Shown here in pieces: positions 1-48,664 of a stretch of 64,000 nucleotides of DNA; the stretch's first letter is position 1; each line of letters starts with the position of its first letter. The position numbers were made by a program, and so were the translations under genes. The DNA comes from Acidobacteriota bacterium (GTDB taxonomy: Bacteria; Acidobacteriota; Vicinamibacteria; Vicinamibacterales; UBA2999), in assembly GCA_027622905.1 (NCBI GenBank), contig JAQBVV010000001.1, positions 2,111 through 66,110 of the forward strand. Reading direction: 5' to 3'. A model generated the notes under the pieces. The model ran no database searches. It worked only from the letters and a program-made list of their open reading frames with translations, and was not told the DNA's origin.

Positions 1-435
1 TGACAGGTCCGAGGGCATCTTGTCGTACTCGCGACCCAGGCCGACCTGCGTAAGCAGATGGCTCGCCCGCGAGCGGATCTCGTCGTTCGCGAGATCCGAG
101 TGCCTGCGGAGCGGGAACGCCACGTTTTCGCCCACGCTGATCGAGTCGAACAGCGCCGCGTACTGAAAGAGAAATCCGATCCGTTTGCGGACCCGCGAGA
201 GCTCCCGACTCGACAGCCCGGTAATGTCTTCTCCTTCGATCAGGACGCCGCCCGTGTCCGGACGGATCAGGCCGATGATGGTTTTCAGCGAAACGCTCTT
301 CCCCGTGCCGCTCCGGCCAAGGATGCAGATGCTTCGCCCCGCCTCGATGGTCAGCGAGACATCGTCGAGCACCTTCCGGGTTCCGAACGATTTACTGACG
401 GCTCGGAGTTCCACCGCCGGTCTGTCGGTCGCCAT
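1..435 (-). CDS. ABC transporter ATP-binding protein, MlaF-like (partial, C-terminus beyond window edge)
   Basis: The minus-strand frame is open to the window edge. The ATG at 435-433 abuts the stop of the upstream permease. My translation MATDRPAVELRAVSKSFGTRKVLDDVSLTIEAGRSICILGRSGTGKSVSLK... contains the Walker A motif GRSGTGKS. Confidence 0.8.
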   Translation of the reverse strand, partial: MATDRPAVELRAVSKSFGTRKVLDDVSLTIEAGRSICILGRSGTGKSVSLKTIIGLIRPDTGGVLIEGEDITGLSSRELSRVRKRIGFLFQYAALFDSISVGENVAFPLRRHSDLANDEIRSRASHLLTQVGLGREYDKMPSDLS

Positions 436-1185
436 CTACACCGGATAAAAGAAGAAGATGATGCGCACGAGCAGTACATTCGCGGCAATGAGCAGGATCG
501 AGGACGCGACCACGCTCTGGGTGGACGCACGGCCGACACCCTCCGTTCCGCTGTTCGTATTGATCCCGAGATAGGAGGCCACGCTGGCGATGATGAACCC
601 GAACACCATCGTCTTGAGCGTTGCGGGAATCAGATCCGAGAACTCGATGGCGGTGAACGCCTGTCTGAAATAGGCCTGGAACGGCGTGCCGGTGATGCTC
701 GTTTCGGCGACGTACCCGCCGAACATGCCGGTGAAGTTCATCAGGCTGGTCAGCAGCGGCAGCGCGATCACGCAGGCGATGACGCGCGTGACAACGAGAT
801 ATCTGAACGAGTCGACCGCCGTGGCTTCCAGCGCATCGATCTGCTCGGTCACTTTCATGGCGCCGAGCTCCGCGCCGATGCCGGCGCCGATTCGTCCGGA
901 CAGCAGGAGGCCCGCCGTGAGCGGTCCGGTCTCCCGCACCAGGGCGATGGCGAGTCCAGCCGGAATCAACGCCTCGGCACCGAATCGGGCCAGGGATGCC
1001 CGCGTGTGCATGGAGAGCACGATGCCGACGGCAAAGCCGCTTGCGGCGATCAGCGGCACCGACCGGCAGCCGAGCTCAAAGAGCTGCCGAAGGGTCTCTC
1101 GGAACTCGTAGGGAGGTCGCACCGATTCCACGATCACCCGTCCCGCGAAACGGGCCGCCTCACCGACGACTACGAGCAGGTGCAT
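436..1185 (-). CDS. MlaE/YrbE-family ABC transporter permease
   Basis: 249-aa ORF encoding a multi-pass membrane protein with an MlaE-like core (GAELGAMKVTEQIDALEATAVDSFRYLVVTRV). It is translationally adjacent to the ATPase gene. Confidence 0.8.
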   Translation of the reverse strand: MHLLVVVGEAARFAGRVIVESVRPPYEFRETLRQLFELGCRSVPLIAASGFAVGIVLSMHTRASLARFGAEALIPAGLAIALVRETGPLTAGLLLSGRIGAGIGAELGAMKVTEQIDALEATAVDSFRYLVVTRVIACVIALPLLTSLMNFTGMFGGYVAETSITGTPFQAYFRQAFTAIEFSDLIPATLKTMVFGFIIASVASYLGINTNSGTEGVGRASTQSVVASSILLIAANVLLVRIIFFFYPV

Positions 1186-1199
1186 GGTGGAAGCCCCGT

Positions 1200-2120
1200 T
1201 CAGAACAACCGGTAGGCAACGCCGGCGCTGACGATCGTCGTATCGCCGCGCGTTGACCGTTTCTCAAGCTGCCCGTTCTCCAGCACCGTCAGGCGGAGCC
1301 GCGTGATCACGTGCCCGACAAAGACGTTCAAGGCTGTTCGACGGCTGAGGTTGTGCCAGAGTGATACGGACGGTCGCCAGACGAGGCTGTTGTCGACCTC
1401 CACCGGCAGTCCCTCGGCGGCTCCGGTCTCGGTGACCGTCAGACTGTTCCAGGCATACCCACCGACCAGCGACGCCGACAGGGACGTTCGCTCCGTCCCG
1501 ACCGTGTAGCCGGCCCCGAGCATGATCGGCTTGATCTGGACGTGCGTCAGCGCATCCGGATGATCGCCCAGCGATCGGAGCTTCGCTTGAACCCAGCCAA
1601 GTCCCACGGCCAGTCCGAGGCCCTGACCCGATCCGAGCTTGAAGAGCGGGCCGACCGAGACTCGGTGTCCCAGTTCCGCCGCGCGCGGCGCGCTCCAGCC
1701 GACCGACGCGCCGACCGCCAGCAAGCCGGGGTTGTCCTGAGGTTCCGACAACTCGACACCAGAGGCGTCGAACTGATCCGACGGTTCCTCAGACCGTGGG
1801 GACTGCGCGCCTATTTGCAGGGCGGCCTGGACGTTGACGACACCAGGAACGCCGCGCGCGATCATCACGGCTCGGTCGACCTCCGCCTGGCTCGCGACCT
1901 GTCCGGACAGTTGCGCCACGCCGAGCGCCACGCGGACTTCGATCGTGCGAGGGCCCAGATCGGGGTCGTTGACCAGGGCCGTCTTGACGCGCGCGGCTGT
2001 CTGCGCATCGGAGATGGCCATCGGATCCACGACGGTGCGGCATCCGGCCCCGCCAGCGACCACCGCCATGCAGACGAGCATTCTCGCGACGAGCGTCAGA
2101 GACCGCCTCAATCGAGTCAT
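1200..2120 (-). CDS. BON-domain protein with a C-terminal outer-membrane beta-barrel-like region
   Basis: 306-aa ORF. It has an N-terminal signal/Cys (VVAGGAGC) and a BON-like segment (TAARVKTALVNDPDLG...LSGQVASQAEVDRAVMIARGVPGVVNV). The C-terminal half has an alternating hydrophobic pattern and ends in ...VSAGVAYRLF, a terminal aromatic typical of OMP beta-signals. Confidence 0.65.
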   Translation of the reverse strand: MTRLRRSLTLVARMLVCMAVVAGGAGCRTVVDPMAISDAQTAARVKTALVNDPDLGPRTIEVRVALGVAQLSGQVASQAEVDRAVMIARGVPGVVNVQAALQIGAQSPRSEEPSDQFDASGVELSEPQDNPGLLAVGASVGWSAPRAAELGHRVSVGPLFKLGSGQGLGLAVGLGWVQAKLRSLGDHPDALTHVQIKPIMLGAGYTVGTERTSLSASLVGGYAWNSLTVTETGAAEGLPVEVDNSLVWRPSVSLWHNLSRRTALNVFVGHVITRLRLTVLENGQLEKRSTRGDTTIVSAGVAYRLF

Positions 2121-2124
2121 GTCG

Positions 2125-3270
2125 TCAACCTGTCTGCTTGACCGCGAACGGCCTGCTGGCTTCGCCGAAGTATACCGACATGTGCGGGAACGGGATCTCG
2201 ATTCCCTTGGCGTCGAACGTCTTCTTGATGCGTCTCAGGAGCTCGCGACCGATCGCCCACTGCTTCAGCGGCACGGTCTTGATCCGGACCTTGATGGTCA
2301 CCTGCGAGTCCTCAAGGGCATCCACGCCCAGGATCTCCAGCGGCTCGAGAATCGAGTCCTGAAAGGCCGGATCGGCGGCAAGTTCCGCGCCGACCTCACG
2401 CAGCGCATCGGCGACAGCATCGGTGTCCTCCTTGTACGCCACCCCGACGTTGACGACGTAGTACGAAAAATCTTTCGTGCGATTTGCAAGGGTCTCGACA
2501 GAGCCGTTCGGGAAGACATGCACGACGCCCTCCAGATCCCTCAGCACGATCGTCCGAAGGTTGATGGCTTCGACCAGACCACCGGTACCATTGATCGTCG
2601 CAACATCGCCGACGCGCACGTGGTTTTCCAGTATCAAAAAGAATCCAGCGATCAGGTCCTTCACCAGCGTTTGCGCGCCGAAGCCGACGGCCAGGCCGAG
2701 GATGCCGGCGCCCGTGAGGATCGGCACGATATCGACGTTCAGTTCCCGGAGCACCATGAGCGTGGCCACGGCCGTCAGGAGGACAGTCAGGAGGTTCTGC
2801 GCGAGCCGGGCAAGGGTCTTGGCGCTCTTGGCGCGCTCTGCGGCCTCAACCGCAGAGGTACCGCGACTCAGCTCGGCTTCGAGGCGTTTCGCGGCCGAGG
2901 CGATGACGCGAATGAGCAGATACGTCAGCAGCGTGATGACGACGACGCGCAGTCCCGATCCGAGCAGCCAGGCCGTCAGCGCTTCTGGCGCGAGTCCCCA
3001 TGAAATCTGCATACCGGCCAGACGGAGCGCCGGCGGAGCAAGGGCGAGAACGGCAGCCAGGAAGACCACCGCCCGGGTGACGCGAATCGGGCCGTGTACG
3101 ATCGGGCTCTGAAAGTTCCTGGCCTCATCGCCGCCCGTGACAGACACCAGCACTCGCCGGATCACCCGAGCCGCGATCTGGGCGACGATGTACGCGACGA
3201 CTGCGACGACGAGCAGCACGATGCTGAGCGTCGTCCAGTTCTCGACTTGGCCGATCAGGCTATCCAACAT
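2125..3270 (-). CDS. Mechanosensitive ion channel, MscS family
   Basis: 381-aa ORF with N-terminal TM helices followed by an MscS core (LIAGFFLILENHVRVGDVATINGTGGLVEAINLRTIVLRDLEGVVHVFPNG). Confidence 0.85.
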   Translation of the reverse strand: MLDSLIGQVENWTTLSIVLLVVAVVAYIVAQIAARVIRRVLVSVTGGDEARNFQSPIVHGPIRVTRAVVFLAAVLALAPPALRLAGMQISWGLAPEALTAWLLGSGLRVVVITLLTYLLIRVIASAAKRLEAELSRGTSAVEAAERAKSAKTLARLAQNLLTVLLTAVATLMVLRELNVDIVPILTGAGILGLAVGFGAQTLVKDLIAGFFLILENHVRVGDVATINGTGGLVEAINLRTIVLRDLEGVVHVFPNGSVETLANRTKDFSYYVVNVGVAYKEDTDAVADALREVGAELAADPAFQDSILEPLEILGVDALEDSQVTIKVRIKTVPLKQWAIGRELLRRIKKTFDAKGIEIPFPHMSVYFGEASRPFAVKQTG

Positions 3271-3482
3271 CGTCAGTTTTCTCGCTATTCAGGCGCACCC
3301 CCGCACCCCATCAGTGCTGCACATCATTGCATTCTAATTGGCCGTCGCGGCACCAGACAGCACCGGATTCCCGTCTACAGGTAGTCTTGCTGGTGTCGGC
3401 GACGGATCCAGAGACGCGGTGGCGCCACCCGAAATGCGGCTCAGCCGTCCCGGTCAGCGAGACCGGTGACCCAGAGCCACGG

Positions 3483-4175
3483 CTACCCCAGTTCGTCGTG
3501 CAGGAACGCGACGACCTTCGGCCAGATCTGCGCAGCGAGGTCCGCGTTCAGCGTCCCCAGCGCATTGTGCGGTGCCATGAAGGCATGGCCGGTTCCGGGG
3601 TGGACCGTCAATGTGACGTCTTTCCCCATGGACGTGAGCTTGGCCTCGAGCGCGCGAGCGGCCTCCGGAGGGAAGAAGCTGTCCTGCTCGGCCATGTGGC
3701 CACGCACTGTCGCGGTCAGCCTGGACCAGTCCGGCTCGGTGTCGCCATGGGGGAACCCGTAAAACGGTACAACCGCTGCGACCTTGTCCGGACGATTCGC
3801 GGCAATCAGGAAGGCCAGCATGCCGCCCATGCAGAACCCCATGACGCCGATGTTCTGGCCCGTCACGGCGGGATGCCCGGAGAGGTAGTCCACCGCACCG
3901 CTCATGTCACGACCGGCCCTGTCGGGCGGGAGGCTCTGCATGAGCTCACCGGCCTTGTCCATTTCGTCGTGCCCCGCCAGCTCTCCGTGATAGAGATCTG
4001 GTGCGAGCGCGACGAAACCGGCGGCGCCGAGGCGATCGGCCATTTCCTTGATGCCCGAATCAAGGCCCCACCATTCCTGTATGACCAGGACGCCCGGACC
4101 GGTACCGCTGGGGGGCGTCACCAGGTACCCGGACGCTGTATGCCCGTTGACGGGGAACTCGACGGTGTCAGCCAT
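3483..4175 (-). CDS. Dienelactone hydrolase family protein
   Basis: 230-aa ORF with the GVLVIQEWWGLD motif and the nucleophile elbow GVMGFCMGG typical of DLH-fold hydrolases. Confidence 0.85.
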   Translation of the reverse strand: MADTVEFPVNGHTASGYLVTPPSGTGPGVLVIQEWWGLDSGIKEMADRLGAAGFVALAPDLYHGELAGHDEMDKAGELMQSLPPDRAGRDMSGAVDYLSGHPAVTGQNIGVMGFCMGGMLAFLIAANRPDKVAAVVPFYGFPHGDTEPDWSRLTATVRGHMAEQDSFFPPEAARALEAKLTSMGKDVTLTVHPGTGHAFMAPHNALGTLNADLAAQIWPKVVAFLHDELG

Positions 4176-4210
4176 GGGTGTGAGGATAGCCGATCACATG
4201 CCGTGTGTCT

Positions 4211-4942
4211 CTACCGGGCACGCTGCAGTCTCTCCAGGACATCGACCAGCGCGCGGCCGCGCTCCAGGGCGCCCCGCTCTTCAAGGAGTTCCTGGCGAAT
4301 CGATGGATCGATCGGAAGGTACTGGGCCAGCTCGTCCACGACCTGTTCGTCGGGAACACCCGCCGGTGGCTGCACGATGCCGAGCCGGTCGGTCATCGCG
4401 AGCAGCAGGGACTCCAGTTCCTGGCGAACCTCGCCGAGCGCTGCGGTGTCCTGGTCGTTCAGGACCTCCTCCATCGGTTCCACGCGGGCCAGACGGTAGA
4501 TCCGGCTGTCGTCCTCCTCGTCGAGCACGCGAAACTTCACCAGGCCGCCAAGCACGATGTTGAACTCCCCGTTGGGAAGTGCTTCAAAGTCGGTGATCAG
4601 GCCGGCACACCCGATGGCCTCGATCGGGGGCCGCCCTTCATAGTCAGCCTCGAAGCCCGGTCGCAGCGTCGTCATGCCGATGAGACGGTTGCCCTTCATT
4701 GCCTCGACGATCATCGTGCGATAGCGCGGCTCGTAGATCCGGAACGCATGTGACGCGTTCGGGAAGAGCGTGGCGCTCGGGAGCGGAAAGATCGGAATCG
4801 TCTCGGGCAACCCGCCGGTCATGACCGGGGCGTCACCCGTGGCCGTCGTCTGTGCCGCGAGAGTGGCGGGCGTCGCCAACGAACAGGCAAGCGCCATGAC
4901 CCAGATTCCGATCATCGAGAATCGTGTCGTCGTCATGGCCAC
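4211..4942 (-). CDS. LON N-terminal (substrate-binding) domain protein with predicted signal peptide
   Basis: 243-aa ORF. The IPIFPLPSATLFPNASHAFRIYEPRYRTMI segment matches the LON N-domain start. The N-terminus MIGIWVMALACSLATPATLAAQ looks like a signal peptide. Confidence 0.7.
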   Translation of the reverse strand: MAMTTTRFSMIGIWVMALACSLATPATLAAQTTATGDAPVMTGGLPETIPIFPLPSATLFPNASHAFRIYEPRYRTMIVEAMKGNRLIGMTTLRPGFEADYEGRPPIEAIGCAGLITDFEALPNGEFNIVLGGLVKFRVLDEEDDSRIYRLARVEPMEEVLNDQDTAALGEVRQELESLLLAMTDRLGIVQPPAGVPDEQVVDELAQYLPIDPSIRQELLEERGALERGRALVDVLERLQRAR

Positions 4943-14759: not shown

Positions 14760-16463
14760 ATGATGGTTGAACAACCGCCGACCTATCGCGATCCGATGAG
14801 CCGTCTGGCGATGCGGCAGCTCCTCTGGCTCGGCGCCTTGTCCCTTGTCGGGTTCGTCGCCCTGATGGGGGCACTCGCGTGGGCGTCGTCGATCACCGGG
14901 GGCAGCGCGATCGCTGGTCGAGCGATCGATGTCGAGACGGGGACCATCACCCGCGCACTGGCGCAGGAACCTCCCCAGCTTGATTCCACGCGTGCCACCG
15001 ACCAGGCCAGCATTTTCATCCTCGGGCACGTCATGGAAGGGCTCCTGCGCTACGACGCGAGCAACAGGCTTGTGCCCGGGGTGGCCGAACGATGGGACAT
15101 CCGACCTGATGGCGCAACCTTCTGGTTGCGCGACGATGCGCGGTGGAGCGACGGGCGACCAGTGACGGCGCACGATTTTGTCTTCGCGTGGCGCACGATC
15201 GTCGACCCTGCCAACGCCGCTGAGTACGCGTTCATCCTCTACTACGTGAAGAACGGAGAGGCGATCAACAGAGGCGAACTGTCCCCGGAGGCGCTCGGCG
15301 CCACGGCGGTCGACGATCGGACCCTCGAAGTCGAGTTCGAGCGCCCGGTCGGTTTCTTCGATAAGCTCGTTGCGTTCGCGGTGTATTTCCCCGTGCGAGA
15401 GGACTTCTACCGGAGCCGCGACGGGAGATACGCGGCTGACGCCGAGGACCTCGTGTACAACGGGCCGTTCATGATGACGCGGTGGGTACACGGGGCGCAC
15501 GTGCGGCTTGAGAAGAACCCGCTGTACTGGAACCGCGACGCGGTGCGCCTCAACGTCATCGACATGCCATACGTGACGGCCGACACCGGAGCCGTTGTGA
15601 ATCTGTTCAAGGACGGTTCGATCGCGACAGCCACGCTCGGCGCCGAGCAGCTCGACGACGCGATGAAGCTGCGCTGGAACCTCGGTCGCTACAGCGACGG
15701 CTCAGTCTTCTATATCGACTTCAACTTCCGCCCCGAGCGACTGACGAGCAACTTTCATCTGCGCAGGGCGCTGCAGCTGGTCAACGACTCCGGAGAGCTC
15801 GTCAACAAGGTGATCGGGCTTCCAGGCTATCTGCCCGCCGTCTCCTTGTTTCCCATCTGGTTGAACGGGGTCGAGGGACCGTTTCGGCAGGAGTACCCGC
15901 CGCCGGTGGTGATCCCCGATCTGGAACTGGCCCGGACGCATCTGGAGCTCGCCAAGCAGGAGCTGGGCGTGGCGGAGATCCCGCCGCTCGTCCTCTTGAC
16001 GGGCGATGCACCAATTGCCAACAAGCAAGCCGAGTACTTCCAGAACCTCTTCGACAGGGCGCTCGGACTCGAGATCCGGATCGACAAGCAGATCTTCAAG
16101 CAACGTCTCGACAAGATGACGTCCGGCGATTTCGACATGGTGGCTGCAGGATGGGGGCCGGATTTCGCGGATCCGCTGACCTTTGGCGATCTCTACGCGT
16201 CCTGGAATGGCAACAACCGCGGTAAATACAACAACCCGGCGCTGGACGAGCAGGTACGCATCGCCCAGAACTCACTCGACCCGAGAACCCGGATGGATGC
16301 GTTCGGAGAGATCCAGCGGATCCTGATCGATGACGCCGTGCAGTTACCAAACTACGAGCGAGGCCTTGTGTACGTCGAGGATCCGCGGCTCAAAGGCGTC
16401 GTTCACAGATCCGTGGGCACAGATCCTGATTACACCACGGCGTACCTCGTCGAGAATCCCTAG
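14760..16463 (+). CDS. ABC transporter substrate-binding protein, family 5 (Opp/Dpp peptide type)
   Basis: 567-aa ORF with an N-terminal membrane anchor/signal. Its length and sequence are typical of SBP family 5, and it is the first gene of a permease/ATPase operon. Confidence 0.85.
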   Translation: MMVEQPPTYRDPMSRLAMRQLLWLGALSLVGFVALMGALAWASSITGGSAIAGRAIDVETGTITRALAQEPPQLDSTRATDQASIFILGHVMEGLLRYDASNRLVPGVAERWDIRPDGATFWLRDDARWSDGRPVTAHDFVFAWRTIVDPANAAEYAFILYYVKNGEAINRGELSPEALGATAVDDRTLEVEFERPVGFFDKLVAFAVYFPVREDFYRSRDGRYAADAEDLVYNGPFMMTRWVHGAHVRLEKNPLYWNRDAVRLNVIDMPYVTADTGAVVNLFKDGSIATATLGAEQLDDAMKLRWNLGRYSDGSVFYIDFNFRPERLTSNFHLRRALQLVNDSGELVNKVIGLPGYLPAVSLFPIWLNGVEGPFRQEYPPPVVIPDLELARTHLELAKQELGVAEIPPLVLLTGDAPIANKQAEYFQNLFDRALGLEIRIDKQIFKQRLDKMTSGDFDMVAAGWGPDFADPLTFGDLYASWNGNNRGKYNNPALDEQVRIAQNSLDPRTRMDAFGEIQRILIDDAVQLPNYERGLVYVEDPRLKGVVHRSVGTDPDYTTAYLVENP

Positions 16464-16474
16464 CACCAATTCTT

Positions 16475-17407
16475 GTGCTGACGTACACCCTCAAGCGCAT
16501 CCTGCAGGGGATAGTCACCGTCTGGTTCATCGCGACGGCCACCTTCGTCGCGATGCACGCGGTGCCTGGAGACCCGCTTGCGAATCAGCGCGCGACCAAC
16601 GAACAGATACAGCGCAACCTGGAGCAGCGGTACGGGCTCGACCGGCCCGTCTCCGAGCAATACGTCGTCTTCCTCGGAGGGATTCTGCGCGGCGATTTTG
16701 GCATCTCGTTCACGCAGGAGAACCGCCGCGTCAATGACATCATCCGGGAAAACTTTCCCGTCTCGGCCACGCTTGGCATCCTCGCCGTGGCCTTTGCTGC
16801 CCTCGGCGGCATTCTGTTCGGGGCACTGACCGCGTTGTTCCGGGACCGTCTGCCGGACCTCGTGATCATGTTCCTCGTGATCCTGGCGATTTCTGTGCCG
16901 AGCTTCGTCGTGGCGGCGTTCAGTCAGCTTGCGCTTGTCGACATCAACGTCTACCTGGGCTTCTCGCTCTTGCCCGTGGCTGGATGGGGCACGCTGCGTC
17001 ACATGATCGTCCCGTCGATGGTGCTCGGCTTGGGCACCATGGCGTACCTCACGCGGCTCATGCGCTCGTCGATGCTCGAGATCACGAGTTCGGATTTCAT
17101 CCGAACCGCGCGCGCCAAGGGTCTGCCTCCCGCGCGCATCTTCCTGAAGCACCAGTTGCGCAACGCGGTGCTGCCGGTGGTGACGGTACTCGGGCCGGCG
17201 ATCGCCGCCATTACGACTGGCGGCTTCGTGGTCGAGCTGGTGTTCGCCATACCGGGCTTGGGCCGGTATTTCGTCGAGGCGGTGCAGCAACTCGACTACA
17301 CCGTCATCATGGGCACGACCGTCTTCTACGGCGCTTTCCTCGTCAGCATGGTGATCGTCGTCGATCTGTTGTACGGATGGATCGATCCCCGGGTGAGAGT
17401 CGAGTGA
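16475..17407 (+). CDS. ABC transporter permease (OppB/DppB type)
   Basis: 310-aa ORF. The start MLTYTLKRILQGIVTVWFIATATFV and the end YGWIDPRVRV are typical of OppB-type permeases. Confidence 0.9.
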   Translation: MLTYTLKRILQGIVTVWFIATATFVAMHAVPGDPLANQRATNEQIQRNLEQRYGLDRPVSEQYVVFLGGILRGDFGISFTQENRRVNDIIRENFPVSATLGILAVAFAALGGILFGALTALFRDRLPDLVIMFLVILAISVPSFVVAAFSQLALVDINVYLGFSLLPVAGWGTLRHMIVPSMVLGLGTMAYLTRLMRSSMLEITSSDFIRTARAKGLPPARIFLKHQLRNAVLPVVTVLGPAIAAITTGGFVVELVFAIPGLGRYFVEAVQQLDYTVIMGTTVFYGAFLVSMVIVVDLLYGWIDPRVRVE

Positions 17408-47879: not shown

Positions 47880-47918
47880 GGTGAGGTGGCTGAGTGGCCG
47901 AAAGCGGCGGTTTGCTAA
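47880..47918 (+). repeat. Orphan 5' half of tRNA-Ser(GCU) (attL-like direct repeat)
   Basis: ggtgaggtggctgagtggccgaaagcggcggtttgctaa is identical to nt 1-39 of the intact tRNA-Ser at 52113. Identity ends at the last base of the anticodon loop. Confidence 0.9.
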
Positions 47919-47939
47919 GGCCGCCCGAGATCGAAGAAC

Positions 47940-47975
47940 GGGCCTGAAATTCACGATTTCAGGCCCGTTTTTTAT
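47940..47975 (+). terminator. Rho-independent terminator immediately after the half-tRNA
   Basis: GGGCCTGAAAT-tcacg-ATTTCAGGCCC is a perfect 11-bp stem, followed by GTTTTTTATT. Confidence 0.65.
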
Positions 47976-48101
47976 TGGGTCGTTGGTTGGCGTTGGCTGC
48001 CGATGGATGGTCCTCGGACCGAGTTTGGGCACACTGGCGGGCACACTGGAGCGGACGCCAATGTGTGCCTTGTGGGCACACGATGCATTACGCTGAGCGA
48101 G

Positions 48102-48329
48102 ATGCCGAGTAAGAATCGACGTCAGAGGAAATCGTCGTCACAAGACTCGATGACGCGGTCATCGTCGGGCGCCTCCGCGCTCCGGGCGTTGAAGCTCGAC
48201 GCCTGTGAGCGAGGCCTGCTCAATGACGTCGAACGGGGCGAGTGGACGGCAGTCGGGCAGCTCGCCGCTGCCCGAGTTCGATACGCTGGCATCGCGAAGG
48301 CGACTCTACGCCGCCCTCGAAAAGCGTAG
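48102..48329 (+). pseudogene. Truncated CopG/RHH-type antitoxin-like fragment (N-terminal half only)
   Basis: ...CERGLLNDVERGEWTAVGQLAAARVRYAGIAKATLRRPRK resembles the N-terminal part of COG5304-type antitoxins (xxFERGEWxSV...). The ribbon-helix-helix half and a partner toxin are missing. Confidence 0.35.
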
Positions 48330-48388
48330 CTGCGCATTCTCTCGCAAGGCTCGCCGATCCGCAGGGTGCCGGCGTACAATTGGACATC

Positions 48389-48664
48389 ATGCGGGTCACC
48401 ATTCAGTTGCCAGACGACATATCCGCCGCCCTCGAGGGGCAGTGGGACGACGTGCCCCGCCGTTCACTCGAGGCCATCGCGGTTGAGGGCTACCGCACCG
48501 GCGCACTGACGGAGTCTCAGGTTCGGAAGTTGCTGGGACTCGACACGCGCTTCCAGGTACATGTGCTGCTCAAGGAGCACCGCGTGCCGCTGCATTACAC
48601 GAGCGCAGACATCGAGGACGACATCCGCGCACAACGTGAGCTCGGCATCCTGCCCGGCCAATGA
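48389..48664 (+). CDS. UPF0175-family antitoxin
   Basis: ATG at 48389. MRVTIQLPDDISAALE...SLEAIAVEGYRTGALTESQVRKLLGLDTRFQVHVLLKEHRVPLHYTSADIEDDI fits the UPF0175 pattern. It overlaps the downstream toxin gene by 4 nt. Confidence 0.8.
   Translation: MRVTIQLPDDISAALEGQWDDVPRRSLEAIAVEGYRTGALTESQVRKLLGLDTRFQVHVLLKEHRVPLHYTSADIEDDIRAQRELGILPGQ

What the first reader, a model, noticed from the sequence alone, without database searches (positions are those of the whole stretch)
48027..48081. Tandem GGGCACACTGG motifs just inside both island ends (candidate arm-type recombinase or RDF sites)
The left end has GGGCACACTGG at 48027-48037 and again at 48039-48049. It also has an inverted GTGTGCC at 48063-48069 and a further GGGCACAC at 48074-48081. 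The right end has GGGCACACTCG at 51924-51934 and GGGCACACTGG at 51936-51946, followed by a degenerate inverted copy (gtgtccacac). Both 23-bp blocks have the same orientation and 12-bp phasing. They sit about 110 bp (left) and about 165 bp (right) inside the att-like repeats, where P and P' arm sites of tyrosine-recombinase elements are usually found. In the ORF track they show up only as spurious GHTGGHTG / GHTRGHTG peptides.
Basis: seen in the sequence. Interest (0 to 1): 0.55.

Follow-up and report, generated by a model that had tools for sequence, protein, structure and literature searches.

The report
Integrase arm sites at island ends
The repeated GGGCACAC motifs are real and are most likely the accessory ("arm") docking sites of a tyrosine integrase, kept at both ends of a small integrase-less island next to a serine tRNA gene; this is an ordinary kind of feature in a little-studied element family of soil Acidobacteriota.

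Summary
The tandem pair GGGCACACT-N3-GGGCACACT occurs only twice in the 64-kb window, 108 nt and 166 nt inside a perfect 39-nt direct repeat. That repeat is the 5' half of tRNA-Ser(GCU). The same motif cluster sits at the same offsets (+108, +120, +155) in about 100 independent left ends that were collected without using the motif. It also lies at the 3' end of about 400-aa tyrosine integrase genes that read into tRNA-Ser, where it is conserved in different reading frames. A second element family at the same site carries GGGACA repeats instead, and left and right motif types always agree (12:3:0, Fisher p = 0.002). The integrases have an N-terminal beta3-alpha domain with recurrent sub-threshold matches to Pfam Arm-DNA-bind_2. 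The 4.2-kb island has no integrase or excisionase. It carries a toxin-antitoxin pair, an unknown 503-aa ORF and a broken ADOP permease. It is therefore a non-autonomous or decayed derivative of an ICE-like family. Whether Int or the excisionase binds the motif, and whether the island still moves, is not shown. This is a new member of a known kind, of moderate interest.

The parts
47880..47918 (+). Left att repeat: an orphan 5' half of tRNA-Ser(GCU), positions 1-39 up to the anticodon loop.
   Evidence: It is 39/39 identical to 52113-52151. The same fragment precedes class A left ends in other genomes.
47934..47979 (+). Hairpin with a 17-bp stem, followed by a T-run. Inferred to be a terminator that stops transcription from the orphaned tRNA promoter.
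   Evidence: Inverted repeat I11. The RNA fold has z = -4.5. It is conserved in most left ends, with a variable loop and a few compensatory stem changes.
47983..47999 (+). Conserved box TTGGTTGGCGTTGGCTG between the terminator and the arm sites. Its role is unknown.
   Evidence: Nearly invariant in 29 aligned left ends.
48027..48035 (+). Left arm copy L1, GGGCACACT.
   Evidence: The exact 8-mer is present in 86 of 102 left ends that were not selected on the motif. Information content is 1.94 bits per position.
48039..48047 (+). Left arm copy L2, GGGCACACT, 12 nt after L1.
   Evidence: Exact in 69 of 102 unbiased left ends, 1.80 bits per position, against 0.91 for the 3-nt spacer.
48063..48070 (-). 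Left arm copy L3, inverted (GTGTGCCT on the + strand).
   Evidence: GTGTGCC is present in 76 of 102 unbiased left ends. It was not part of any search pattern.
48074..48081 (+). Left arm copy L4, GGGCACAC.
   Evidence: GCACAC is present at this place in 77 of 102 unbiased left ends.
48389..49143 (+). Cargo: a UPF0175 antitoxin-like gene (48389-48664) and a DUF3368 PIN-like gene (48661-49143).
   Evidence: Pfam. PADLOC PDC-S70, E = 3.6e-45.
49172..50683 (+). Cargo: a 503-aa ORF of unknown function.
   Evidence: No Pfam, NCBIfam or PADLOC match. DNA relatives lie beside the same end motifs in L022 and L028.
50763..51897 (+). ADOP (MacB/FtsX-type) permease pseudogene with an internal deletion and a frameshift.
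   Evidence: It matches TIGR03434 positions 2-215 and 751-803 of 803, in different frames.
51924..51932 (+). Right arm copy R1, GGGCACACT.
51936..51944 (+). Right arm copy R2, GGGCACACT, 12 nt after R1.
51965..51974 (-). Degenerate inverted copy (gtgtccacac). It lies roughly where other integrase-less relatives have GTGTGCCC.
   Evidence: Compared by eye with class C right ends, for example L089.
52029..52112 (+). Element-borne region upstream of the tRNA: hairpin 52029-52053 and the promoter-like cgtagactt at 52095-52103.
   Evidence: It is 75-80% identical to the region before internal or second tRNA halves in other arrays (L071, L048, L091, L090). Promoter function is inferred.
52113..52205 (+). 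Intact tRNA-Ser(GCU). Its first 39 nt are the right att repeat and are supplied by the island.
   Evidence: ARAGORN. Rfam tRNA, 59.4 bits. Repeat.

Best explanation
The GGGCACAC(T) copies are the arm-type (accessory) sites of a family of tyrosine-integrase elements from Acidobacteriota, mostly Vicinamibacterales. These elements recombine at the anticodon loop of tRNA-Ser(GCU) and replace the 5' half of the gene. In the excised circle the two ends would join, so the core would be flanked by a direct pair about 100 nt on one side and by a cluster (two direct, one inverted, one direct) 108-160 nt on the other. That makes an attP of roughly 280-300 bp. The integrase is inferred to bind these sites with its small N-terminal beta3-alpha domain, while its C-terminal domains bind the core. 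This would bridge arm and core into an intasome, and an HTH_17 excisionase encoded next to int would set the direction. The 4.2-kb island in the window keeps both att repeats, both arms, a terminator behind the orphan tRNA half and a promoter-like region in front of the restored tRNA. It has no int or xis gene. It is therefore a non-autonomous or decayed derivative that could move only with Int/Xis supplied by a related element. Shown here: the anatomy, its conservation, the left/right concordance, and the link to integrase genes. Inferred: which protein binds the motif, and whether this copy is still active.
For: 1. The pair occurs only at the two island ends in the window.
Of those hits, 36 were homologous left ends, 11 were integrase 3' ends next to tRNA-Ser, and 14 were integrase 3' ends next to other tRNA genes.
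3. Among 102 unique left ends collected with an anchor that excludes the motif, copy 1 is exact in 86, copy 2 in 69, the inverted copy in 76 and the fourth copy in 77. The motif columns carry 1.8-1.9 bits against 0.9 for the spacer.
4. In several loci the cargo diverges directly after copy 2, so the pair belongs to the end module and not to the cargo promoter.
5. Inside int ORFs the motif is read as GHT.GHT (14 loci), as GTL.GTL (8 loci) or in a third frame in two frameshifted copies. The conservation is therefore at the DNA level.
6. The integrases are tyrosine recombinases (Pfam Phage_integrase; Foldseek hits to Xer, IntI and Tn1549 Int).
7. Their N-terminal 50 residues fold as three strands plus a helix (pLDDT 84). 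They match Pfam Arm-DNA-bind_2 below threshold in 14 of 15 variants.
8. An integrase at another tRNA with the same motif keeps 80% identity in the N-domain against 58-63% elsewhere. It has AbiV, not an HTH_17 gene, upstream.
9. A second family at the same site has AGGGACA/GGGGACA repeats with the same phasing. In elements bounded by two att copies the left and right types agree: 12 GGGCACAC/GGGCACAC, 3 GGGACA/GGGACA, 0 mixed, Fisher p = 0.0022.
10. One contig has a class A left end and an int-bearing right end about 32.5 kb apart (L084 and L057). L121 shows ICE-like genes upstream of int: T4CP, a VirB11-like ATPase, RepB primase, RadC and HTH_17.
Against: 1. There is no integrase or excisionase in the island or anywhere in the 64-kb window.
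2. No binding data exist.
3. The N-domain assignment is weak. The Pfam matches are below the gathering score. Foldseek of the N-domain against the PDB gave nothing significant. A PDB profile search and an hhalign comparison with the lambda Int N-domain were both negative.
4. The right-hand pair in the window is farther from the tRNA (177/189 nt) than in int-bearing elements (70/82 nt). Most integrase-less relatives have it inverted at 138-183 nt, and the model does not explain this.
5. The genome scan selected on the motif itself. Only the metagenome sample is unbiased, and it covers left ends only.
Confidence: 0.65

Rival explanations
1. The repeats are binding sites for the recombination directionality factor (the HTH_17 excisionase encoded just upstream of int in intact elements) and not for the integrase N-domain.
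For: Intact relatives encode an HTH_17 protein next to int. From general knowledge of lambda, L5 and Tn916, tandem direct repeats with about one helical turn of phasing are typical of Xis filaments.
Against: The motif is on both arms and in both orientations. From general knowledge, Xis sites usually lie on one arm. The motif tracks a conserved Int N-domain in an element (L038) with no HTH_17 gene within 1.3 kb upstream of int. The Int N-domain gives recurrent Arm-DNA-bind_2 matches. None of these points is decisive.
Confidence: 0.15
2. The sites are real arm sites but are now relics. The island is an immobile fossil left after int/xis were deleted, and the motifs have no present function in this genome.
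For: There is no int or xis in the island or window. The permease cargo is a pseudogene. The right arm differs in distance from int-bearing elements. Many relatives carry fragmented int genes.
Against: All four left copies and both right copies match the consensus exactly, and the 39-nt repeats are identical. At least a dozen integrase-less 3-5 kb relatives keep the same ends, which fits mobilisation in trans as well as it fits recent decay. This rival concerns activity, not identity, and is compatible with the best explanation.
Confidence: 0.4
3. The repeats are operators of a transcription factor that controls the first cargo operon at the left end and the tRNA promoter at the right end.
For: The left cluster lies upstream of the first cargo gene; in many relatives a DUF497/BrnT-like ORF starts about 45 nt after copy 4. 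The right pair lies upstream of the tRNA.
Against: The cluster is kept whatever cargo follows, and the cargo breakpoints fall directly after copy 2. In intact elements the right pair lies inside the int coding region. The motif type is concordant between the two ends of an element. That is expected for recombination partners and not for two unrelated promoters.
Confidence: 0.05
4. The motif is a chance match or a generic dispersed repeat (REP- or MITE-like), or the terminal inverted repeat of a transposon.
For: The hits outside Acidobacteriota in the genome scan are mostly coding or low-complexity repeats.
Against: No shuffle of the window gives even one pair. The copies at the two ends are in direct orientation and lie inside a tRNA-derived direct repeat, not a target-site duplication. 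The position is fixed relative to att in about 100 loci.
Confidence: 0.01

Closest known systems
Arm-type sites of phage lambda Int (P1, P2, P'1-P'3) (own knowledge)
   Same: A short motif unrelated to the core, repeated on both sides of the crossover within about 50-200 bp. The integrase has two DNA-binding parts with a small N-terminal domain. An excisionase gene lies beside int.
   Different: The motif sequence differs, and the N-domain shows no detectable sequence similarity to the lambda N-domain. The target here is a tRNA anticodon loop with the 5' half replaced. No binding data exist here.
Mycobacteriophage L5 attP arm sites, used as adjacent pairs P1/P2 and P4/P5 (own knowledge)
   Same: Arm sites are organised as directly adjacent tandem pairs on each arm. 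The element integrates into a tRNA gene.
   Different: L5 restores the 3' part of tRNA-Gly, whereas here the 5' half of tRNA-Ser is restored. Here the right pair overlaps the 3' end of the int ORF.
tRNA-targeting genomic islands as catalogued by Islander
   Same: An intact tDNA plus a displaced fragment in the correct configuration marks the island ends. Tandem arrays occur at one tDNA.
   Different: Only 159 of 3919 Islander islands have a 5' fragment (PMC4383910, Table 1). Islander also requires an integrase gene inside the island, which this island lacks.
CIMEs (cis-mobilisable elements) derived from ICEs in Streptococcus thermophilus (own knowledge)
   Same: The island is flanked by functional-looking att sites, lacks recombination and transfer genes, sits at the site used by related ICE-like elements, and has relatives in tandem arrays.
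   Different: Mobilisation has not been shown here. The phylum and integrase family are different.

Membership tests
Arm-type sites of a heterobivalent tyrosine integrase | A short motif, different from the core sequence, repeated on both arms within about 50-200 bp of the crossover | tested here: met
   Left copies lie 108, 120, 144 (inverted) and 155 nt after the att repeat. The right pair lies 189/177 nt before it.
Arm-type sites of a heterobivalent tyrosine integrase | Conserved in sequence and position at the ends of homologous elements, more than the surrounding DNA | tested here: met
   In 102 left ends not selected on the motif, the motif columns carry 1.8-1.9 bits against 0.9 for the spacer. 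Offsets are the same in the complete short elements that carry this motif.
Arm-type sites of a heterobivalent tyrosine integrase | The element encodes a tyrosine recombinase | tested here: not met
   There is none in this island or in the window. The feature is met in intact relatives.
Arm-type sites of a heterobivalent tyrosine integrase | That recombinase has an extra N-terminal arm-binding domain | tested here: inconclusive
   The model shows a beta3-alpha fold with pLDDT 84. Arm-DNA-bind_2 matches 14 of 15 variants, all weak (best E 2.9e-4; the one member tabulated scores 18.2 bits, below the 22-bit gathering score). Foldseek, a PDB profile search and hhalign against lambda were negative.
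Arm-type sites of a heterobivalent tyrosine integrase | The motif changes together on both arms between element families | tested here: met
   12 GGGCACAC/GGGCACAC, 3 GGGACA/GGGACA, 0 mixed; Fisher p = 0.0022.
Arm-type sites of a heterobivalent tyrosine integrase | Direct binding by the Int N-domain, and a requirement for recombination | not testable with these tools
   This needs EMSA or footprinting and mutagenesis.
RDF (Xis) binding sites | Bound by the excisionase; usually tandem repeats on one arm between the core and the arm sites | not testable with these tools
   An HTH_17 gene is present in intact relatives. The motif lies on both arms and in both orientations, which fits less well.
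tRNA-integrated genomic island (Islander criteria) | A tDNA and a cognate end fragment, in the same orientation, with the 5' fragment upstream | tested here: met
   The criteria are those described in PMC4383910.
tRNA-integrated genomic island (Islander criteria) | An integrase gene inside the island | tested here: not met
Non-autonomous integrative element (CIME-like) | att sites at both ends, with no recombination or transfer genes | tested here: met
Non-autonomous integrative element (CIME-like) | Excision or transfer when a related autonomous element supplies the proteins | not testable with these tools
   Only 64 kb of the source genome is available, and no experiment is possible.
Transposon or MITE terminal repeats | Terminal inverted repeats plus a short target-site duplication | tested here: not met
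   The end blocks are in direct orientation. The flanking repeat is a 39-nt tRNA half.

The most novel reading that the evidence does not exclude
The 3-5 kb integrase-less elements, including this island, may be a population of hitch-hiking mini-elements and not debris. They keep intact arms, both att copies, an insulating terminator and a promoter plus the 5' half of tRNA-Ser, and they carry toxin-antitoxin or defence cargo. On this reading they are moved in trans or in cis by the integrase and excisionase of the roughly 30-kb ICE-like elements that share the GGGCACAC arm code. Because they supply the promoter and 5' half of the tRNA, they would become hard to lose. The same arm code downstream of integrases at other tRNA genes would then define a large, predictable integrase/arm-site specificity group.
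Probability: 0.25. Interest if true: 0.55.

Novelty: new member of a known kind. Interest (0 to 1): 0.4.

Why it matters
Arm-type sites have been mapped experimentally for only a handful of integrases. Here, comparison alone gives a clear arm-site consensus, its spacing, and a matching integrase family for soil Acidobacteriota that are mostly known only from metagenome-assembled genomes (MAGs). It also gives a second family with a different arm motif at the same tRNA site. This makes attP boundaries of these elements predictable. It offers a natural pair of specificities for studying how an N-terminal domain reads arm DNA. It also flags abundant integrase-less mini-islands as candidates for trans-mobilisation. 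For the window itself, the result explains the spurious GHTGGHTG peptides, fixes the island borders at 47919-52112, and shows that the tRNA-Ser promoter and 5' half are island DNA.

Tried and rejected
1. Searches for an integrase in the window found nothing. tblastn with four family integrases gave only noise, and the best hit (16456-16590, E = 0.003) lies in ABC-transporter genes.
3. The whole-integrase AlphaFold model was poor (pLDDT 61). It was used only to confirm the recombinase fold.
4. A covariation test using the GGGCACAGT variant (integrases ending GHSFGHS) failed, because the contigs did not reach the left ends. A viral-contig scan for that variant gave unrelated phage repeats.
5. 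A viral-contig scan with the left-end box alone gave 21 chance hits in 22. A longer anchor was therefore used for the metagenome scan.
6. Literature searches for the motif and for Acidobacteria integrative elements found nothing relevant.
7. I first read the hairpin-plus-promoter region upstream of the tRNA as native chromosome. I rejected this because the same region precedes internal att copies in tandem arrays and therefore belongs to element right ends.

Full report
**Observation.**
- The left block has two direct GGGCACACT copies 12 nt apart (48027, 48039), an inverted GTGTGCC (48063) and a fourth direct GGGCACAC (48074).
- The right block has two direct copies with the same phasing (51924, 51936) and a degenerate inverted copy (51965-51974).
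- The tandem-pair pattern, even with two mismatches allowed, matches only these two places in 64 kb and never in 100 shuffles.
- Both blocks lie inside a perfect 39-nt direct repeat (47880-47918 and 52113-52151). This repeat is the 5' half of tRNA-Ser(GCU) up to the anticodon loop. The intact gene is at 52113-52205.

**The island.** The segment between the repeats (47919-52112, 4.2 kb) holds four things:
- a UPF0175/DUF3368-PIN pair, where the PIN protein matches the PADLOC candidate PDC-S70;
- a 503-aa ORF with no family match;
- an ADOP permease pseudogene that keeps only model positions 2-215 and 751-803.
There is no integrase or excisionase here or anywhere in the window. The flanking genes are queG and a phosphofructokinase.

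**Relatives found with the motif.** About 17 matches would be expected for 18 fixed bases in 596 Gb. Most hits are MAGs labelled Acidobacteriota, mainly Vicinamibacterales. Sorted by context, the hits fall into these groups:
- 36 are homologous left ends;
- 11 are the 3' ends of integrase genes that read into tRNA-Ser;
- 14 are 3' ends of integrase genes beside other tRNA genes;
- 2 are integrase-less right ends;
- 57 are "other", partly degraded left ends and partly coding repeats in unrelated phyla.

**Left-end anatomy.** The left end has a fixed layout. In order, it contains:
- the orphan tRNA half;
- a short imperfect inverted partner of the anticodon stem (GGCYGCC);
- a 17-bp-stem hairpin with a T-run;
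- the box TTGGTTGGCGTTGGCTG;
- the four motif copies.
The window has this same layout.

**Removing ascertainment bias.** The genome scan selected on the motif, so I collected left ends again from metagenomes with an anchor made only of the hairpin and the box. Results for 102 unique left ends:
- Copy 1 is exact in 86, copy 2 in 69, the inverted copy in 76 and the fourth copy in 77.
- Information content is 1.94 and 1.80 bits per position in the two direct copies, against 0.91 in the 3-nt spacer.
- Some ends have lost exactly one 12-nt unit.
- In several loci the sequence diverges completely right after copy 2.
The last point places the pair in the conserved end module and not in the promoter of whatever cargo follows.

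**Link to an integrase.** In the int-bearing right ends the pair lies at the end of an ORF ending ...SVFDRYNVVSDGDLRDA..RRL-GHTGGHT-..., 62 nt before the tRNA start.
- Full-length homologues are about 400 aa. They carry Phage_integrase and SAM-like domains and match Xer, IntI and Tn1549 integrase structures.
- The motif is translated as GHT.GHT in 14 loci and as GTL.GTL in 8 loci; the frame differs again in two frameshifted copies. The tail it encodes is predicted disordered. What is conserved is therefore the DNA, not a peptide.
- Gene context in L121 is ICE-like: coupling protein, VirB11-like ATPase, RepB primase, RadC, an HTH_17 excisionase-like gene, then int.
- One contig carries a class A left end and an int-bearing right end in the same orientation about 32.5 kb apart (L084/L057). 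This gives the likely size of an autonomous element, provided no further att copy lies in the 24 kb I could not see.

**Is there an arm-binding domain?** The first 50 residues (MGSVYSR..SPYLWIKYHQHGR.VRESTGT...ARRMLR.REGDVERG) are predicted with pLDDT 84 as three strands followed by a helix.
- From my own knowledge, this is the topology described for the lambda and Tn916 arm-binding domains.
- Fourteen of 15 sequence variants match Pfam Arm-DNA-bind_2, and no other family recurs. The matches are weak (best E = 2.9e-4); the one member whose score was tabulated reached 18.2 bits against the 22-bit gathering score.
- Foldseek against the PDB, a PDB profile search and hhalign against the lambda N-domain gave nothing.
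I therefore rate this feature as inconclusive, not met.
- An integrase beside a different tRNA that has the same motif (L038) is 80% identical in this domain but only 58-63% identical elsewhere. Its upstream neighbour is AbiV, not an HTH_17 gene. This mildly favours Int over the excisionase as the binder.

**Concordance between the two ends.** tRNA-Ser is a hot spot with tandem arrays. A second family at the same site carries AGGGACA/GGGGACA repeats with the same 11-12-nt phasing and similar offsets. Among non-redundant elements bounded by two att copies within one locus, counted together with the window island:
- 12 have GGGCACAC-type copies at both ends;
- 3 have GGGACA at both ends;
- none is mixed (Fisher p = 0.0022).
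Family-specific motifs that change together on both arms are what recombination partner sites predict. Promoter elements or generic repeats do not predict this.

**Mechanism proposed.** After excision the two ends join, so that the core (anticodon stem-loop) is flanked by the right pair about 100 nt away and by the left cluster 108-160 nt away. That is an attP of about 280-300 bp.
- Int would bridge arm and core sites, and the HTH_17 protein would bias the reaction towards excision.
- The element must rebuild the 5' half of the tRNA. It therefore carries that half and a promoter-like region (cgtagactt in the window, cgtatactt in relatives).
- The element also places a strong terminator behind the orphaned chromosomal promoter and tRNA half.
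- The binding protein, the promoter and the terminator functions are all inferences.
- Use of the 5' fragment is a minority mode but is known: 159 of 3919 Islander islands (PMC4383910, Table 1).

**What this island is.** It matches a set of integrase-less 3-5 kb elements with the same left offsets (+108, +120, +155). All six good copies match the consensus and the att repeats are identical, yet a cargo gene is broken and int/xis are absent. It is either a recent deletion derivative or a non-autonomous element that depends on a related resident element. With only 64 kb of the genome I cannot decide between these.

**What does not fit.**
- In int-bearing ends the right pair is direct at 70/82 nt from the tRNA.
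- In the window it is direct at 177/189 nt.
- In most integrase-less relatives it is inverted at 138-183 nt, although the flank after it is collinear with the window.
I have no explanation for this.

**Comparison and verdict.** The feature works like the arm-type sites of lambda-family integrases. In its paired layout it most resembles the L5 P1/P2 and P4/P5 pairs (own knowledge). The island resembles a CIME. Literature searches found no description of this motif or of these elements. It is a new member of a known kind: a well-supported but unsurprising mechanism in an under-studied phylum. The bonuses are a clean natural pair of arm specificities and an abundant class of integrase-less mini-islands.

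Noticed in passing
window 47934-47979: A 17-bp-stem hairpin plus T-run lies directly after the orphan tRNA-Ser 5' half. It is conserved in nearly all homologous left ends, with a variable loop and a few compensatory stem changes. It probably terminates transcription from the orphaned tRNA promoter. A stable RNA made of the tRNA half fused to the hairpin could be produced.
   Followed up: partly
window 50763-51897: An ADOP (MacB/FtsX-type) permease pseudogene. Only model positions 2-215 and 751-803 of 803 remain, in different frames. It ends 26 nt before the right motif pair.
   Followed up: yes
window 49172-50683: A 503-aa ORF with no Pfam, NCBIfam or PADLOC match. DNA relatives lie beside the same end motifs in other genomes (L022, L028), so it is recurrent cargo of this element family.
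   Followed up: partly
window 48389-49143: A UPF0175 / DUF3368 PIN-like gene pair. The PIN protein matches the PADLOC candidate defence family PDC-S70 (E = 3.6e-45).
   Followed up: yes
L184 (- strand, between att copies at 491 and 3460), L199 1439-4854, L228 (- strand, 4-4574), L121 11377-11418: A second element family uses the same tRNA-Ser 5' site but carries AGGGACA/GGGGACA repeats (11-12-nt phasing) at both ends instead of GGGCACAC.
   Followed up: yes
L122 9911-9931: An integrase subgroup with the C-terminal tail GHSFGHS has the variant pair GGGCACAGT-TTT-GGGCACAGT. Its N-domain also differs (WIKYLQHGRVIRESTQT...).
   Followed up: partly
L122 10112-11068 (-), L123 4047-5189 (-): The same tRNA-Ser gene is also occupied on its 3' side by other elements whose integrase genes point towards the tRNA. 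Both sides of the gene are therefore integration sites.
   Followed up: no
L024 2858-2960: A tRNA-Ser copy runs through to the T-loop (ggttcgaatc) and is then joined to a class A left end. This is a junction at the T-loop instead of the anticodon loop, and may be an off-site integration.
   Followed up: no
L041, L044, L071, L074, L172, L184, L196, L222, L247 (138-183 nt upstream of the second att copy): In most integrase-less mini-elements the right-hand motif is inverted, either a single copy or a pair. In the window and in int-bearing elements it is direct. This is unexplained.
   Followed up: partly
L004, L006, L053, L056, L060, L079, L105 (Amycolatopsis and related actinomycetes): GGGCACACTNGGGGGCACACT plus a third degenerate copy lies just upstream of a conserved ORF of about 500 aa. 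The context is different and may involve an unrelated DNA-binding protein.
   Followed up: no
window 49047-49062 vs 51918-51933: A 16-nt inverted match (15/16) links the PIN gene to the right motif and its flank (CAAGTCGGGCACAC). By a rough count this is about what chance allows in 5 kb.
   Followed up: no
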